A stretch of DNA of 51,846 nt, counting the filler, from Bipalium vagum (lineage: Eukaryota): the NCBI GenBank assembly GCA_037834085.1. It is 3 parts of 3 records of this genome, joined end to end, with 100 filler letters (N's around TTAATTAATTAA, not from the genome) between each part and the next. Parts side by side here need not be neighbours in the genome. Positions count along the whole stretch, not along the records: positions 16,447 to 34,914 come from JBBMKC010028481.1; 2 more parts are not named here. One strand, given 5' to 3'. The notes below the pieces were generated by a model. It was not told the origin of the DNA, searched no databases, and was given only the letters and a program-made list of their open reading frames with translations. Every line of letters starts with the position of its first letter. The first letter of the stretch is position 1. Both the position numbers and the translations under genes were made by a program. Shown piece by piece: positions 2,527-37,227 of the stretch.

Positions 2527-5500
2527 TTAAAACAAGTCTTCAAAATCTAATGAATTTTCTGATGTCACATTTTCTTCGTTATCATCCATAGTGTGGTCTT
2601 CTTCACCAGCTTCTTCTATCTCTTCATTTTCATTGTAACCGGTGTCCATTTCCTTGTATTTGTCGCTTTGATTAAAATTACTTTTCACTTTCAAGCTCTC
2701 TGCCTCTTCATCTTCAGGCATGGCACAGATTTCTTCATAATCTCTTTCCAATTGACAAATTTGTTCTCTGACTTCGGTAAATTCACCTTCCTCCAAACCT
2801 TCGCCGACATACCAATGAACAAATGATCTTTTGGCAAATAAAACATCAAATTTTCGGTCAATTTCACTAAAAGCCTGAGTAATTGCCGACGAATTTGCCA
2901 ACATAGTAACACTTCTCATAGTTTGAGCCATTTCTGAACCGATTACCGAAACGGGAGGTTGACAGCTTATACTCAACTTAAATCCAGTAGGGCACCAATC
3001 CACAAATTGAATGTCTGTTCTGCGTTTAATTTCGAAAACCGCTTCATTGACATCTCTAGGATTAACGTCTCCTCGATATTGTAAGCAGCACGACATATAT
3101 CTGCCAATCGTCACATTGCACCTCACCATTTGGCAGAATGGTTCAAAAATCGCCCTTGTGATTTCTCTAGTACTGATATCCTGGTGCTCGGCTCTTGACT
3201 GAGACAAAATAGGAGCATAGTTTGATAAAGGAAAGTGAATAACGGGATATGGAACTAAATTCGTAACTAATTGAGATAAATCATTGTTCAGAGCATTTTC
3301 AAATCTTAAAGAAACTGTAACGGAACTGAAAACTTGGGCTATTAACCGATTGAGATTGTTGAATGTTGGTCGAGAAATATCAAGACTTAGACCACATATG
3401 TCATATATTGATTCGTTATCCATTAAAATAGTGACATCAGTATGATCTTTTGTCTTTTGAATTGCCATCAATGTGTTGTATGGTTCTACAACAGCTGTTG
3501 ATAATTGAGTTCCAGGGTAAATTACCACCTGAAATTTTGCTCTTTTCGCATAATCGACTGCTAACTTATTTAACAAAAGACTTGTAAAGCCGGATCCAGA
3601 ACCACCCCCATAACTATTGATAATAATAAACCCTTGGAGATTCTCACAATTATAGGCTATTTTTCTTATTCTTTCCATTGTTTGATCAATCATAGTTTTA
3701 CCAATTGTATAATATCCTCTAGCAAAATTGTTTGCAGCATCTTCAGATCCTGATATTAATTGATCAGGATGAAATAAATTTCTATATGGTCCAATTCTGA
3801 CTTCGTCTGAACAAGTAAAATTATTTAATCACATGTATTCGGGACATTCGAAATAAATCGGTAATATTTTCTTATTTTTATTAAACGTCTTATTTTTGTG
3901 AAGTCTCTTTTACCTTAATTTGTTTAGCAAAGCTACTTTTGTTGTGGAGAAAGAAGTTTTAGAATTTTAAAATACGAAAGAAGAACACTAATGTTACAAT
4001 CGTTCCACGTTGAGAAAATACCAAAATAAGTCATTGATTGGTTAGGTTATAGCAAGATAACAATTTCGACATTTAATAATTAAATAATTAAAAATAAAAA
4101 ATTTATAAATTTACAACATCGCTAAAACAAATCTGACATGAAACATTATGACTTTAACATTTAATAAATTATATTCTGTGAATGTTACTGTTTTTACTCA
4201 TGGATAGAAATTATTCACAGTAAATATCAAATTTGACATAAATGTGGACTTTTTGGATTTTGTTTGCTATTTTAAATTAATTTTTTTATTGTTTATGATA
4301 ATTATTTATTTCACCTATTTCTTTATCATTTATTACCTTTTAAATGACTAATATATTTTTATCATTTTTTTTACTTTAGAATTTGAAAGTCGTCATTAAA
4401 ACTTAGTTTATTTAATAGGTCAGCTAACCTCAGCAAATAATGCAGTTGCCGCTAAGATCAACGATCTAAAAAGGAATTTAAAAGGTTTGTATTTATCGAT
4501 GCTATCCTATTATAAATATTAGTAATAGTAATCATTATTAAAATATTGTATTTTATATGATGCCAACCACTGATATTATTAAATACTGGAGTTCGAAATT
4601 CCAGACAATGTTCTTTTTACAGTAAATTTTTATTAATTAGTAGCTCATGTTAATTTTGTGTTGTATTTTTTCTTAGGCACGTACAAAAGTAGAACAAGAA
4701 TTCCATGATCTAACCAGAAAAATTCAGTTATGATCAGAAGATACAATGTCAATAGTCCATTCAAATGAAGATTTTTCTAAAATGCAACACAACCTCTACC
4801 ATTTTGATTTTCAATCTTAATCATATAAGATTAGCACAATTTAATGAGTGCTGTAGACACAAATCAGGCTGAACGCGCTTATTCAAGAGTACCTATTAAC
4901 TTATATTAAGGAGTTTCACAACTTCGATCTTTCCATCAATCAGCTTTAGAGTCACTTATTTAAATCATCACCATCGATATGGTCAGTTGGGGTACTGTCT
5001 TTTTTTAAAAGTCTTCTCTTAGGTATATTTCTCAAATAAGTCGATTCATAATATATATTATAAGTAGTCATTTTGTGAAATTTTAAAAGGCTCAGCTTAC
5101 CAGGAATTGAAGATTCCTTTGAAAACATGAAAAATAATCTTAACCTTTATAAAAATATAAAAACAAAATCAGTTAATAGATAATTAAATATTAAAAATTA
5201 TTTATTAATTTTTAATTACATAATTCATTCAAAAAGTTTCTGGACAAGCCTAAAAAACCTGCTAATTTTTAAAATTTGTATATCATTTAATACTACCAGT
5301 GTGTGAGAGTTACTATTCATTCGTGTGTGTTGATGTATCACATAGTGGTAATATACAACATAGATTTGACTACTTTACTGTAGAGAAGTACTGACTCATA
5401 ATACTGTTGGGTTACCCAAGACACCCACCCGCCAAGATTAGATCAAGGTTCACAAGGAGGGACCGATTTTTGATTAATGATTCAAAAAGGGAATTGACTT

Positions 5501-21966: not shown

Positions 21967-24026
21967 TCAATATGTTAAAGTGTCTGCCAGATCAGCATTG
22001 GTACGTATAATGGCTTTTCGAGGTTTTCTTCTACTCACTACAGGCTTTTTCAGAACTGGAAGGCGTTTAGCATCAGATCCATCGCTTTTCACAGGTTCCA
22101 CTTGAAGTTTTTCTTCAATAGTACTCATCGGGATATTTTCAATATTGATCGAGTGGAATAAGTTTACGAAAGAAGAACAATCTAAATCCAATGTTTCGTG
22201 TGTACACACATTTAAAAAAGGTTCCAAAATACATTAATCGATATTACCCCCCATGTCAGAGAACATATCATCTGTGATTTTATGGATCAAAATCGTATTT
22301 TGATCTCTTTTACGAACAATTCGAGTTAGCTTATTTTGAGATTCCAATTTCCTAACCGATACATCTCCCTTTTTATAGGACTCGAGAACGTCCGAAAGTA
22401 AAATACTTGGAAGACCTTCGTCAAAATGCTTTTTTAAAAGTTCCGAAAGATCAGTTCGTGATTTGATGTCGTAAAGCGGTTTGAATTTATATTTACCGTT
22501 TTCTACTTCGATTTTGGAGTTGTTTGCAAAAAACTTGTTGGAAATAAAACATGAAAGATTAAATTTAAAAAGATCTGGTGAAAAAATTGAATAAGTTGTA
22601 ATAGCTTAAATCGACGTTTAAAAACTTGCTAACATACTAAGTTTGAAGTTTTTATTTTTTATCTTAATAAATTTTACTATAATTCAATAACATAATTTCT
22701 TCCAATACATTTGACTTATCCGTTAAATTACTGATTAATCAACGAAATCACTAGTTCAACTTTTAATATGGAATTTTATTTCTTATATATTTGGGCTCAA
22801 CTCTGACCACATATAATCGGTTATGTTGAGATTAAATTGTTACAATAATATTATTGATTTTATCTTTCTTTTAAGGTAATTTATTATAAAAGCAATTAGC
22901 ATCAGAGTTTAAATAATATTAATTAATTCATCTATTTCAGTCACTTATATAAGTTATATTATATATTAAGAATATTATATACATGATTATTATTATTTAC
23001 TGTATGTTTATGACTTTTAAATTTAAATTTTCTAGGGATGATTTGACTCTTTATTTCAAAAAATGATAATTTATATATTTTTCTCATTGAATTTTATTTC
23101 AAAGATGCTGTAGATAATTTATACAATTGGTAAATATTAATTTTTAATTTTCTAATTTCTTTGAGTAAATCTGTGATTTTTTTGCAATTTTAGATAAAGC
23201 ATAAATCAAGATTAAAATAAGTAATTAGGATACCATTAATTTTGTGGGCTCCCTTGCAGCACTGACATAACAATTATTTTTTTAAAAAATTGAAACACCT
23301 CATTTTTCATTCATAAAAAATAGAATTCTGACTCGACGCACTCGAATGAACCGGGTACTTAATCTAAGAAATACTGTTTTATATCCAAGAAAAATGTTTC
23401 AATTTGAACTAAAGTGAGTTATTTTAAAATTTTAATTCAAGTTAAATATACAAAAAATTTCAATAATTCTTAAATTATTTCACTTTCAAATTCCAGTTAC
23501 ATTAATCGAAAAAATTATTTCCGGAATTTTTTGTTAATTCAAAATTGATTTTAATATACTACTGCATATACCTTGAACTTCTTAATAACACTAAAAATGT
23601 TAAACATTAAATGTTAACATTTTTTAATAAGTAATAATGAAAATATCAAAAAATAAAAAAACAAGTTACTTCAAGTTCCAAGTATTTCACAATATCAGTT
23701 GGAAAGCGCTCATTCATTTCAGACATTATCTCGTAAACAGATATTGGAAATCTGTCTCCTTTTAAATGACGTTCTTTCAAGTATCGCATTACTCGTGTTT
23801 GTATTCCAAAACTTCCTGAACGAACAGTTGAACCGGGGATCGGTGGCTTTGTAGTAGACTTTGTTTCCTTTTTTTTAGACACGAGAGGTAGACTGTCGTT
23901 ATCATCTTCATATGGTCGCTTTTTAGATTCAAAGGGCTGGTTAATGGAAGTTTTGCTTTCATTTAATTTTTCAATTCTATTACTCATTAACAATCGACGC
24001 ATCCGAATAGCATCATCCTTAGACAT
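21967..24026 (-). CDS. GTF2E2: General transcription factor IIE subunit beta, 3 exons (24026-23670, 22533-22248, 22181-21967), 285 aa
   Basis: Motifs are FGIQTRVMRYLKERHLKGDRFPISVYEI, ELE|FFANNSKIEVENGKYKFKPLYDIK and FVNLFHSINI...basic tail RTNADL. The introns are 1136 and 66 nt, and the second removes an in-frame TAA. Confidence 0.88.
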
Positions 24027-24469: not shown

Positions 24470-26540
24470 GTTTGCACCAAGTCCATGGTTAGTCGCTGTA
24501 AAATGAAAACCAGACTCCAATAAACGGGCCTGTCCGGGTCAGTCCATTGCCAAAACCTTCTCGTGGTGGAGTTGTTAACCTGAATAGGGACCAACTTGGC
24601 TGTAGTTAGGGTTGGGGGATACGCTGGTTGATAGCCGCGTAAAAGCCGACCCAGGGATAGGGTGGTTACAGGGGGCGCATCGACCCTGTAATCACCTGAA
24701 ACACGTACTCGGTTTTGGCAGGGTACACAACTTCGTGCATTCATGGAAAGTTCACTACTATTAATTTAGCAAGCATTCATGGGCGTTCAAGACAAAGACG
24801 AGTCTGAAGCGTCGCACGGAGTTGAGGTTCGGTGTACGATCTGCCCAAGGGTCTGCAAAGGCCTGCGGGGTTTGGGGGTGCATATGGCACGCGACAGAAA
24901 GCAAGGAAAAATTCCGGTTAAGACATCGTAAGAGCTACCGTTGAAAGAGAATCCTCTTTCAACTCTGAGCCGGTTGTTGGTGATGCGGCCACTATACCAG
25001 TGGTCGTGTCATCTCCGCCGGCAATGAAGGAAAAAGTTGTAAAGAGGAGAAACGTCACGAAAGACGAAATAGCCGGCTTTATTCAGGTCGAGGCGCGTCT
25101 GAAAGTACAGGGCGTTCAGGTTATCACTTCGGAGATGCTTGGGCGGATCTGTGGCAGGACGGGTAAGTGCATCACGTTTAACCGAAAGGGGACTGATTAC
25201 CAAGTTGCTTTGGAGAAGGCGATTTGTGATTTACAGACCGAAGAGAGAAGGAAGGCAAACCTCGCGCGCGATGACCTTGATATTTTACCTGGAAGTCTAG
25301 AGATATTAGACGGCAAGTGGACGACGGATGCGGGATTCTTGGAATTCCTACGATCGATGAAGAAGTCGACTAATGACGATAAGTGGGGCGAGAACCTACT
25401 TGACGAGGCGATCGATGTTCCCGGTAGGTTGAGTGAGCCGGTAGAACAACAGGCCACAGTGTTAGTAGCGTCATATAGTAAGGCGGGTAAGCAGAGAACG
25501 AGATGGGAATGCCAACCATTTGAGGAAAATCCAGGGGAACGTAAGAGGGTGCGGAGAAAACGGTATCGGCTTTGGCTGTTCCGGAATATCCAAGCTCTAT
25601 CTCAGATCGACAGAGCGAAGGCCGCACGGCTGGTATGCGATGATGAAACGGAGCGGGTCTATGTTGACACTCCCAATGTCGATCTGTCTTCCCTGACCGA
25701 TTATTGGAAGGCTGAGTTTGAGCAGCTCTCTGACCCTGAGTTGAGTGTTAGTAATAAACCATCGGACGAATGGTTAGGGTCTCCCATAACTCCTGAGGAG
25801 TTAAGAATGGGGCTGAAGCTTACGCCTAATCGAACTGCATGTGGCCCGGATGGGCTGTCTGCGAGACTGGTGAAGATCATACCAGACAGAGTTCTGCTGA
25901 AGAGGGTGAACCTGTATCTGATTGGGAGTTTCCTTCCGAAGATTCTCAAGGACGCGAGAACGGTGCTCATTCCGAAAGTTCAATCCCCTACTCACGGAAG
26001 TGACTTCCGACCTATATCGATCTGCTCCGTTATTGCACGAATCCCTAATAAGATCCTTGCCAGGCGAATCTCTACGGGGGTTCAACGAGCAGAAGGGGTT
26101 CTTACCTCCGGACGGTTGCCTTGAGAATATCTCAAAACTGAAAGGTATTATGGATAGGGCAAAGACCGACTCTGGTAGAGTCTATTTAGCGTTTCTAGAC
26201 ATGAAGAACGCGTTCGGATCCGTAAATCATGGGTCGCTCATCTGGGCGGCGAGGGAAAGAGGAATCCCGGAAAGGGAGATTAAGTATGTCACCTGTAATT
26301 ACAGTGGTGCGATAACGCTAGTTAACGGGGTTATCGTAGTAATCAACCGAGGGGTGAAACAGGGAGACCTATTGTCACCAGTCATGTTTAACAACGTCAT
26401 GGAATCTGCAATTAGTACGGTTAGAGAGCGCATGCTAGGACCTTTGCTGGGGGAGGTAACTCCAATCCTGGCCTATGCGGACGATATAGTTGTTTTCGGA
26501 ACTACCGAACAATATATCAGTAATAGATTCTCCGACCTCT
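24470..26540 (+). mobile_element. R2-clade non-LTR retrotransposon, 5'-intact and 3'-truncated, frameshifted
   Basis: This GC-rich island encodes a zinc finger CTICPRVCKGLRGLGVH (ORF 24779-24931) and a Myb-like KRRNVTKDE...EARL...GRTGKCI...Y. RT motifs are TACGPDG, ARTVLIPK, FRPISI, QKGF, AFLDMKNAFGSV, GVKQGD and AYADD (26471-26485). It ends before the endonuclease. Confidence 0.9.
24513..24600 (+). ncRNA. Candidate HDV-like self-cleaving ribozyme in the R2 5' UTR
   Basis: P1 is GACTCC(24513-18)/GGAGTT(24568-73) with G1-U; P2 is GCCAA/TTGGC; P3 is ACC/GGT closing L3 TTCTCGT. GT follows P1', P4 is CCT-GAAT-AGG, and J4/2 is CCAA with putative catalytic C24591. Confidence 0.6.
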
Positions 26541-26812: not shown

Positions 26813-29165
26813 TTAATCTACGACACTAATGTCATTATAATTGAGAATCTTCCTAGAATAATACGATCGTCCAGTTTTCATATTCCTATTACCGAAATCT
26901 GCACGACCGTCATCTTTCCTGTAGCTGTTCTCTTTTCTCATATTTCGCGAAAATGTCAATGAATCAATACTATGGCCTTGATCAAACGATTTGTCTGATT
27001 TGAAAATCCGACATTGATTTTGATTGGGTCGATTAGAATGATGTTCTGGAAGTTGAGGTCGACGAGGATCCAGAATATAATTGTTGAAGAACTGCACGGT
27101 TTGTTTGACATTATCAACTCGATCATTGTATTTATTGAAAATGTGCTTTCTTACATACTCGGGCCCCTTAAACTTTTTCCCAGATAAGGGACATAGCCAC
27201 TTTTCACTGGATATTTCCTTAGTGTTGTCAGTGATAAACTTTTCAACAGCTTCATCAATATTTCTAACACCGAGCCTGGTTGCGACTTCAAAGTCCAAAT
27301 TATCGATCGAATCTAAAACCAATTCGGTTTTCGTTTCGAAACATTTCATATAATTTTCCAACTGGGCCTGACTCAAACGTTGATCAGGATACATCAAGTT
27401 TCCACGAGCATGAACGAGACCACATCGATTAGGCAATTGGTCCTCAATGTCGTACTCCGTATTGGAATAATAATCATATGAGTGCACAATTCTTAAATAC
27501 AACACCAATCGATCTAGAACCTGTGATAATTCATGGTCTTCGTCTAGCCGAATGTTTGACGGATCACTGCCACCGGTAATCGCTAAATTATTACTGATGT
27601 CACCACCAAGATACGCTTCCTCTTCATAACTGCCTTCATCGACCAGATGCTCAGTAATATTCAACAAAAGTGGGTTCACGTCATCCAAAGGAATCGCTCT
27701 CTGGTCTTCTGTTCCAGAGGAAGATGGTTCCCAAAGATGTCTTCGTTTATCAAATCGAACGACTAATTTTGCTGCATATTTGACATCTTGACGCATCACT
27801 GCCCGGTGATTCGTTACGGGATCAATGGGTCTAATTCTTTGCACAATTTCCTTGTTAATTACTGCACCAAGATCGATATCCATCAGTGGCGCTTTGTTCA
27901 GTTGCCACACGATGTTGTTAATGTCACTACTTCGCTCAAATGTAATCCACCCTCGTCGGAGAAAGTTTCGTTCGGGCATTGGGTCTTGCAATGCCATTCG
28001 TAAATATCCGGGAAATGGTTTTGCAAGCTGCAATTAAAATAAGATCAGGAAATAAATCAATATATAAAAATCAATACTTCTTCAATTTGAGACCGAAACA
28101 CACTTGGATGGATATTTCGTAAGAATATCGAGCAAGTTTTATGTAAAGGCCTTGGATCAATACAATCTTCAGTTAGTAAATCATCATTCATGCATTCTTC
28201 GACAGGCTCCGGTTCAGGTGTCAATTCTTTTTTCAGAATGTTCTTTGTGGATTTCCTTTTTCTTTTTTCGTTATCCTTAGAAAATATTTGATTTGTCTCT
28301 GTTTTATCCGAAATAATCTCAACGTCACTATCGTCAGGACTCGAAGTGTGAAAGTCATCCCAATTCAAACCATTCATATCATTCTGAAAATTATTGTTAA
28401 TCACTAATTAAAATTATTTTCATCAATAGACTGATTTACTTTCATATTGATCTTAATTTCTGTTCGTTGAGGTGATTCATAATTGTAAACGCGCTTCTCC
28501 AATACTTTAAGATCATTTTCATTGCCGCCTTCCAGTAGAATTGATACTGAAGTGATACTGTACATTAATTTTCTACTTAGAACATGAAAGCAAACTTACA
28601 GGAATCAAACAATTTAACCAATGCATCTTGACAATTGATATGTACCGAAACATCATGCAAATAATTATGTTCATAGAGCCACATGAATGCTTTTCGACGA
28701 TTTTCGACAGATTCCAATCGTTTTGTTTCCTTAGTGTTTGTATAATCAGGATGATATTTCTCCATAAACCATTCTTCGTCTTTGTGAGCTTCAAAAAACG
28801 ATTGCAACTGTTCGCAAGCAAATGATTCTTTATACTCATTATATTTGCGCATCGCATCTTCAACTAGAATGTTGTCATCTTGTTGATTTAGAAAATGTTT
28901 GAATAATAGCATTGGTGGCTGAGTTATTACATTAGTCAATTGGTCATTGTCATCTGTCTTGTTTTTAATGGAATGGTTTGATTTCTGTCTTTTTAATAAT
29001 GGCTCTTCCATCAATGTATCACTTATATAAGATCTTTTGGAAATTGGTTTTGTTAAAGAATTACCTACAGTTTATTTATGGTAAAATTATCACAAATATT
29101 ACAAGTAAACCTCGAGTTTGATCGGTTTTACGCCAATCAAGTATATCTGATTCAGAATCACTCAT
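26813..29165 (-). CDS. SRRT: Serrate RNA effector / ARS2, 5 exons (29165-29111, 29064-28600, 28546-28440, 28383-28078, 28027-26813), 715 aa
   Basis: Motifs are QPPMLLFKHFL, FFEAHKDEEWFMEKYHP, LEGGNENDLKVL, PRPLHKTCSIFLRNIHP, RRGWITF, YLRIVHSYDYY and WLCPLSGKKFKGPE. GT-AG introns of 46, 53, 56 and 50 nt give a continuous frame. Confidence 0.95.
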
Positions 29166-37155: not shown

Positions 37156-37227
37156 GGAGATGTATGTCAGCGGTCAGAGAAGTGCATGCGCATGTGAAGG
37201 TCCCGGGTTCGAATCCCGGTATCTCCG
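37156..37227 (+). pseudogene. tRNA-like sequence (tRNA-Ala-derived pseudogene or SINE head)
   Basis: The acceptor stem GGAGATG/TATCTCC and T arm CCGGG-TTCGAAT-CCCGG are intact, and TTTT follows shortly downstream. The D stem is mismatched and there is no canonical 5-7-5 anticodon arm. Confidence 0.7.

What the first reader, a model, noticed from the sequence alone, without database searches (positions are those of the whole stretch)
24513..24600. HDV-like ribozyme fold in the R2 5' UTR with a CPEB3-like single-pair P1.1
Seen: all HDV-like elements occur in order - P1 (6 bp, G1-U), a 30-nt J1/2, P2, P3 ACC/GGT, L3 TTCTCGT, GT, a short P4 and J4/2 CCAA. Established: R2 elements use HDV-like ribozymes to cut themselves out of rRNA co-transcripts, and the AAAACC-TYCTCGT-GGT core resembles those. 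Deviations are a 6-bp rather than 7-bp P1, a one-pair P1.1 and an A-C mismatch at the P2/P3 junction, so it may be a slow variant or a decayed copy. Predicted cleavage is 5' of G24513.
Basis: partly seen in the sequence, partly recalled or inferred. Interest (0 to 1): 0.7.

Follow-up and report, generated by a model that had tools for sequence, protein, structure and literature searches.

The report
Self-cutting RNA of a stray R2
This is the front end of a broken copy of an R2 jumping gene; it folds on paper into a known type of self-cutting RNA that likely trims the element's transcript, and this R2 family, unusually, sits mostly outside its normal ribosomal-RNA landing site.

Summary
Real, of a known kind, with one uncommon twist. 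The HDV-like fold at 24513-24605 is there and far beyond chance (only hit in the window; 0 of 2000 and 0 of 5000 shuffles). It heads a dead, 3'-truncated R2 copy (24513-26510). Among 57 distinct genomic copies, 30 begin exactly at the predicted G1 and 8 one base later, with unrelated flanks: a genomic footprint of the predicted cut. A sister R2 lineage in the same genome, intact and inserted in 28S, keeps the same core with compensatory changes in P1, P2 and P4, and shows that the P1 5' strand descends from 28S position -13. Cleavage itself is untested.

The parts
24513..24605 (+). HDV-like ribozyme fold, whole; G24513 = G1, predicted cut immediately 5' of it
   Evidence: descriptor; copies start here; pair counts
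24513..24518 (+). P1 5' strand (GACTCC), 5 of 6 identical to host 28S positions -13 to -8; inferred to be captured rRNA sequence
24519..24543 (+). J1/2 with a predicted hairpin (24524-24543, -5.6 kcal/mol); sister lineage has a different hairpin at the same place
24544..24554 (+). P2 5' strand (core 24549-24554, extension 24544-24548)
24555..24567 (+). P3 (ACC/GGT) and L3 TTCTCGT (U20 U21 C22 U23 C24 G25 U26 in HDV numbering, numbering recalled)
   Evidence: R2 core CCUCCUCGUGG quoted in PMC5035012
24568..24575 (+). P1 3' strand GGAGTT, then G24574 (pairs C24560, single P1.1 pair) and U24575 (U.U with U24559)
24579..24588 (+). P4 hairpin, 3 bp + GAAT loop; U-A to C-G compensatory change in 7 of 29 copies
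24590..24594 (+). J4/2 ACCAA, predicted catalytic C24591; 24593 is A or G across copies
   Evidence: catalytic role inferred from HDV/R2 homology
24595..24605 (+). P2 3' strand; C24595 and A24604 are decay changes of this copy (family T and G)
24513..26510 (+). R2 retrotransposon copy: 5' end intact, ORF broken into three frames, cut off just after the RT YADD motif (no thumb, endonuclease or 3' UTR); about 93% identical to its closest copies
24830..24892 (+). single N-terminal CCHH zinc finger (R2D-like architecture)
   Evidence: weak Pfam zf-C2H2 hits below cut-off
25922..26510 (+). reverse transcriptase fragment, best solved relatives are R2 proteins

Best explanation
The sequence is the 5' end of an R2 retrotransposon and folds as an HDV-like double pseudoknot that likely cuts the RNA just before G24513, giving the element's RNA its 5' end, while this particular copy is a dead, partly decayed insertion outside rDNA. 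Shown: the fold, the R2 identity, 5' boundaries at G1, compensatory pairing between two lineages, 28S and non-28S junctions. Inferred: source copies are transcribed by read-through (from 28S, possibly also from host genes); the ribozyme cuts co-transcriptionally with C24591 as catalytic base and Mg2+; the R2 protein reverse-transcribes the cut RNA at the 28S site or, often, elsewhere, so full-length copies begin at G1. The P1 5' strand was captured from 28S position -13 and then co-drifted with P1', so the ribozyme no longer needs rRNA upstream. This copy probably still cleaves but less well than the family form (about 0.6), because two P2 pairs are lost.
For: Unique descriptor hit, 0/2000 and 0/5000 shuffles. 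30 of 57 copies start at G1, 8 at +2; among 33 copies with a near-intact P1, upstream columns have at most 55% of one base while +2 to +6 and +8 are 97-100%; 5' flanks of 54 copies share sequence only in three small groups. Family protein matches Bombyx R2 (8GH6) at 217 bits over RT, linker, zinc knuckle and endonuclease. 4 of 44 3' junctions lie at the canonical 28S site, confirmed by Rfam LSU alignment. Sister lineage (49% aa identity, FastTree support 1.0 with a third lineage): intact 1061-aa ORF, 5' junction in 28S, 3' end joined to the 28S site; 7-bp P1 starting at 28S -13; 5 of 7 of its dispersed copies with a printed flank start at exactly that G. Across lineages 97% of cells pair against 28-52% for slid partners, with two-sided changes in P1, P2 and P4.
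Against: No cleavage assay and no RNA data. Rfam finds no ribozyme family here. Covariation rests on few events: within the family only one P4 pair and one single-copy P2 pair change on both sides; across lineages each change is essentially one event and P3 shows none. 19 of 57 copies start at +3 to +17. A7/G7 could also pair with U24567, so a 7-bp P1 / 2-bp P3 misfold competes. Non-pseudoknot MFE folds give other structures, also with the upstream flank. No intact ORF of the window's own family was seen (longest open frame 500 aa among the matches).
Confidence: 0.86

Rival explanations
1. The 5' ends at G1 come from an internal promoter whose start site coincides with G1 (as with Pr77 of L1Tc, which is promoter and ribozyme at once); the fold is vestigial or secondary.
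For: Dispersed copies need some promoter; L1Tc carries both functions in its first 77 nt (PMC3383444, search-listing abstract).
Against: In the sister lineage the dispersed copies start inside 28S-derived sequence at -13, a known R2 ribozyme cut position (jewel wasp, PMC3774820 passage); R2s are described as lacking an internal promoter (PMC13188248 passage); pairing is kept by compensatory changes.
Confidence: 0.08
2. The family's ribozyme works, but dispersed copies are not real off-target insertions: they were moved out of rDNA by recombination or are assembly chimeras.
For: The assembly is very fragmented (272,664 contigs) and rDNA collapses; some degenerate 28S pieces with R2 inside exist (L076, L122).
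Against: Four copies with both ends on one contig (L159, L161, L162, L168) have non-rDNA sequence at both junctions and A-rich tails; 40 of 44 3' flanks are non-28S and nearly all differ from each other; contigs of public run X1 show the same boundary at 24510-24530 (X1 may be the sample the genome came from).
Confidence: 0.04
3. Chance fold in a GC-rich 5' UTR.
For: No Rfam hit; the descriptor was written after seeing the site.
Against: Shuffles 0/2000 and 0/5000; boundary at G1; conservation of the core in a lineage only 49% identical at protein level while J1/2 and P4 diverged.
Confidence: 0.02

Closest known systems
R2 HDV-like ribozymes (Eickbush et al. 2013, PMC3774820; sections 15-18 read)
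   Same: 5' position, P3/L3 core, 6-7 bp P1, catalytic C in J4/2; -13 cut position known (jewel wasp); internalisation of a 28S-derived P1 proposed there (Fig. 8 model, sea squirt B and C).
   Different: Here the P1 5' strand is already element-encoded and changed together with P1' (U-A to C-G, one pair shorter), and most copies lie outside rDNA.
Non-specific or relaxed R2 families: R2NS-1_SMed, R2NS-1_CSi, R2-1_CGi (Kojima et al. 2016, PMC5035012; passages and S1 Fig read); BLAG1-6 (PMC7650587, passages)
   Same: R2 lineages with copies outside 28S; R2-1_CGi has one 28S and one non-28S junction; R2NS-1_SMed is R2D clade from a planarian.
   Different: This family shows both 28S and many dispersed junctions (4 of 44); the passages read say nothing on ribozymes of those families; no sequence comparison with R2NS-1_SMed was possible.
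CPEB3 ribozyme (PMC4836649, PMC9901934; passages)
   Same: P1.1 of one G-C pair plus a U.U pair.
   Different: CPEB3 is a single intronic mammalian locus; no homology implied, only the same motif state.
L1TcRz of Trypanosoma cruzi L1Tc (PMC3185411; passages)
   Same: Self-contained HDV-like ribozyme at +1 of a dispersed non-LTR element, single-pair P1.1, fast cleavage.
   Different: L1Tc is an APE-type element with an internal promoter; this is an RLE-type R2.

Membership tests
HDV-like ribozyme | Nested double pseudoknot P1, P2, P3, P1.1, P4 in order | tested here: met
HDV-like ribozyme | G1 paired with U or C; P1 of 6-7 bp; 3-bp P3; 7-nt L3 | tested here: met
   G1.U in 45, G1-C in 12 of 57 copies at the P1' end; P1 6 bp here, 7 bp in sister lineage
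HDV-like ribozyme | Catalytic C in J4/2 followed by N-R-A (motif recalled) | tested here: met
   C at 24591 in 46 of 54 copies reaching it (some rows shifted by deletions), R = A 38 / G 10
HDV-like ribozyme | Compensatory base changes in helices | tested here: inconclusive
   Two-sided changes in P1 (1 pair), P2 (3) and P4 (1) across two lineages, none in P3; few independent events
HDV-like ribozyme | Mg2+-dependent self-cleavage 5' of G1 | not testable with these tools
   indirect only: 30 of 57 copies start at G1
R2 retrotransposon | Single ORF: N-terminal zinc finger(s)/Myb, RT, zinc knuckle, restriction-like endonuclease; R2 as closest relatives | tested here: met
   Myb domain read by eye, not tested by a profile
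R2 retrotransposon | Insertion at the 28S AAGG/TAGC site | tested here: inconclusive
   met by 4 of 44 family 3' junctions and by the sister lineage; not met by the window copy and 40 of 44 junctions
R2NS (fully non-specific R2) | No copy at the 28S site | tested here: not met
   L076, L115, L118, L122 end at the 28S site

The most novel reading that the evidence does not exclude
An R2 caught leaving rDNA: having captured its P1 strand from 28S, its ribozyme is self-contained, so dispersed copies can cut themselves out of ordinary host transcripts and serve as new source elements, which would make ribozyme autonomy a step in the loss of target specificity.
Probability: 0.3. Interest if true: 0.65.

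Novelty: new member of a known kind. Interest (0 to 1): 0.42.

Why it matters
The ribozyme is ordinary for R2, but the genome is a natural experiment. Dozens of dispersed copies record the RNA's 5' end at base resolution and fall on the predicted cut; two sister lineages show the before and after of the published model in which rRNA-derived P1 becomes part of the element; and an R2 protein that inserts both at 28S and elsewhere, next to an intact sister protein, gives a pair for asking what sets R2 target specificity, a live question for R2-based gene insertion. In searches I found no paper describing ribozymes of dispersed R2 families; Ruminski 2011 and Repbase were not available, so this is not proof of absence.

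Tried and rejected
Rfam, gathering and E-value modes: no HDV/CPEB3 hit. A source copy with no P1.1 pair: 6 of 57 copies have T at 24574, but in a tree of 42 copies with enough length the 6 included are scattered and share no other derived column, so recurrent change is more likely. Target-site duplications: none of 4 or more bases at the junction in 4 full-length dispersed copies. Second-site consensus: no clear motif after the A tail, tail ends are ambiguous. A full-length 5' junction of the window's own family in 28S: not found; rDNA is collapsed in this assembly, so this stays open. Expression: no RNA holder listed. Host identity: the neighbouring ARS2 protein gives only animal hits at 49% or less among proteins of 712 aa and longer, so the host was not placed by my calls; the Atlas did not hold the sequence. 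First homologue search with the short RT piece was uninformative. The published S. mediterranea R2 row in PMC13188248 Table S2 looks different at its 5' end by eye (cells cut, supplementary files 13-16 not searched). Ruminski 2011 (PMC3308841) not held; figures of PMC3774820, including the active-site variants of Fig. 6A, not visible. Earlier-findings look-ups by sequence and by words gave nothing.

Full report
Observation. The window is a pack of three stretches; the finding lies in the second, G000 contig C28481. GC jumps from about 20% to about 49% at 24.5 kb and falls back after 26.5 kb. A descriptor for the HDV fold (G1 paired to a pyrimidine, P1 6-7 bp, P2 at least 5 of 6, P3 3 bp, L3 TYCNCGY, G after P1', CNRA before P2'; motif recalled, and written after seeing the site) hits only 24513 on either strand of the window, 0 of 2000 dinucleotide shuffles of the element and 0 of 5000 of a 300-nt region. 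Rfam has no matching family.

What carries it. Downstream lie one CCHH finger, a Myb-like stretch (by eye) and an RT, broken over three frames and ending at 26510 just after YADD. Other copies continue through thumb, linker, zinc knuckle and endonuclease to a 3' UTR and an A-rich tail. A 500-aa open stretch of one copy matches Bombyx R2 (8GH6) at 217 bits, other R2 structures at 123-127 bits and LINE-1 at about 21. So the element is an R2, and the window copy is dead.

The 5' boundary marks the cut. Searches of the own genome returned 40 scored matches each (lower bounds). Among all loci held, 57 distinct copies keep the core; 30 begin at G1, 8 at +2 and 19 at +3 to +17 (the exemplars start at G1, so this call cannot show earlier starts). 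That nothing of the family lies upstream is shown separately: in 33 copies with at most one mismatch in P1, upstream columns reach at most 55% of one base while +2 to +6 and +8 are 97-100% conserved, and the 5' flanks of 54 copies are unrelated except three groups that share a flank. Contigs of public run X1 show the same step at 24510-24530 (summed depth 23 to over 1400; not a copy number, and X1 may be the source sample).

P1 of 6 bp: R2 P1 is 'typically 6 or 7 bp' (PMC3774820 section 16). One-pair P1.1: U at 24559 in 54, G at 24574 in 49 and U at 24575 in 55 of 57 copies; CPEB3 has one G-C plus U.U (PMC4836649, PMC9901934, passages) and L1TcRz has one pair and is fast (PMC3185411, passages). 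A-C at the top of P2: A-U in 28 of 29 aligned copies, the window copy being the exception (L107, outside that set, also has C); a second private change, A24604, breaks the P2 extension; P2 duplex energy is -7.3 against -11.8 kcal/mol for copy L008. So the mismatch is decay, the rest is lineage design.

Pairing across copies. In 29 copies (those of 54 with near-intact P1 and enough 3' sequence) 91% of cells pair against 32-51% for slid partners; one P4 pair changes U-A to C-G in 7 copies, which is probably one event; four rows are misregistered in P1 by the A run. A protein search found sister lineages with open frames of 1061 and 991 aa at 49% and 47% identity, grouping with the window family at support 1.0. 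The 1061-aa element has its 5' junction in 28S and its 3' end joined to the 28S site. Its ribozyme has the same P3, L3, GT and ACCAA, a perfect 7-bp P1 that starts at 28S position -13, and different J1/2 and P4. On 9 of 57 window-family and 5 of 10 sister copies, 97% of cells pair (slid controls 28-52%), with two-sided changes in P1 (C-G / U-A), P2 and P4 and none in P3; these are few independent events.

Origin of P1. Host 28S reads GACTCTC at -13 to -7; the sister element begins GACTCTTTTAAG, a slightly changed copy of 28S -13 to -2; the window family begins GACTCC. Five of 7 dispersed sister copies with a printed flank begin at exactly this G and 2 lack 3-4 bases, so they were copied from RNA that began inside 28S-derived sequence, which self-cleavage explains best. 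Eickbush et al. report a -13 cut in a jewel wasp R2 and propose that 28S-derived P1 can be propagated and internalised (PMC3774820, passages and sections 17 part 1 and 18). The two lineages look like two stages of that model; this step is inference.

Target site. Of 44 distinct 3' junctions, 4 are at the canonical 28S site (L076, confirmed by Rfam LSU, L115, L118, L122) and 40 are not; two of the four came only from a 28S-aimed search, two of the 40 share a flank, and collapsed rDNA undercounts 28S copies. Four copies with both ends on one contig have non-rDNA sequence on both sides and no duplication. The family therefore keeps the R2 site but is mostly dispersed. Precedents: R2NS-1_SMed and R2NS-1_CSi (no 28S copies) and R2-1_CGi (mixed) (PMC5035012, passages and S1 Fig), BLAG elements (PMC7650587, passages). 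Earlier AI notes call this genome a planarian; my own check placed it only among animals.

Mechanism and verdict. Shown: fold, R2 identity, boundary at G1, cross-lineage pairing, mixed targets. Inferred: read-through transcription, Mg2+-dependent cleavage by C24591, reverse transcription of the cut RNA at 28S or off-target. Not shown: activity, expression, or that dispersed copies are sources. The ribozyme is a new member of a known kind; the relaxed targeting with a captured P1 is the part worth following. Interest 0.42.

Noticed in passing
L232 (G000:C200135) with L127; L233 (C205983) with L126: Two further R2 lineages with open frames of 1061 and 991 aa whose 3' ends join the 28S site; the first has a complete ribozyme and at least 7 dispersed relatives.
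   Followed up: yes
L114, L128-L142: Many other inserts at the same 28S spot but four bases upstream (before TAAGG), several with long T-rich (GTTTTT)n tails: other 28S-specific elements, possibly NeSL-clade as described for planarians (PMC5035012 passage); not classified.
   Followed up: no
L144/L116 versus L143: Two 28S types in the assembly; one reads CTCTTCAGG rather than the usual CTCTTAAGG just upstream of the R2 site, a changed target that could bear on R2 specificity; the other may be a second rDNA type or a contaminant.
   Followed up: no
L122 (G000:C57485): A 28S copy holding about 500 nt of other sequence followed by a short 5'-truncated piece of this R2, i.e. stacked inserts at the target.
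   Followed up: partly
window 26813-29071 (-) and 23670-24026 (-): The R2 sits between a SERRATE/ARS2 gene (Pfam) ending about 300 nt beyond the element on the opposite strand, and a divergent gene whose first exon resembles TFIIE-beta by recall (no Pfam hit).
   Followed up: partly
L003 and L024: Copies of two different subfamilies share about 380 nt of 96%-identical upstream flank: two insertions in the same repeat, or conversion.
   Followed up: no
window 37156-37227 (+); 2527-3828 (-): A weak tRNA-like match (Rfam 34 bits) and a tubulin ORF in other stretches of the pack.
   Followed up: no
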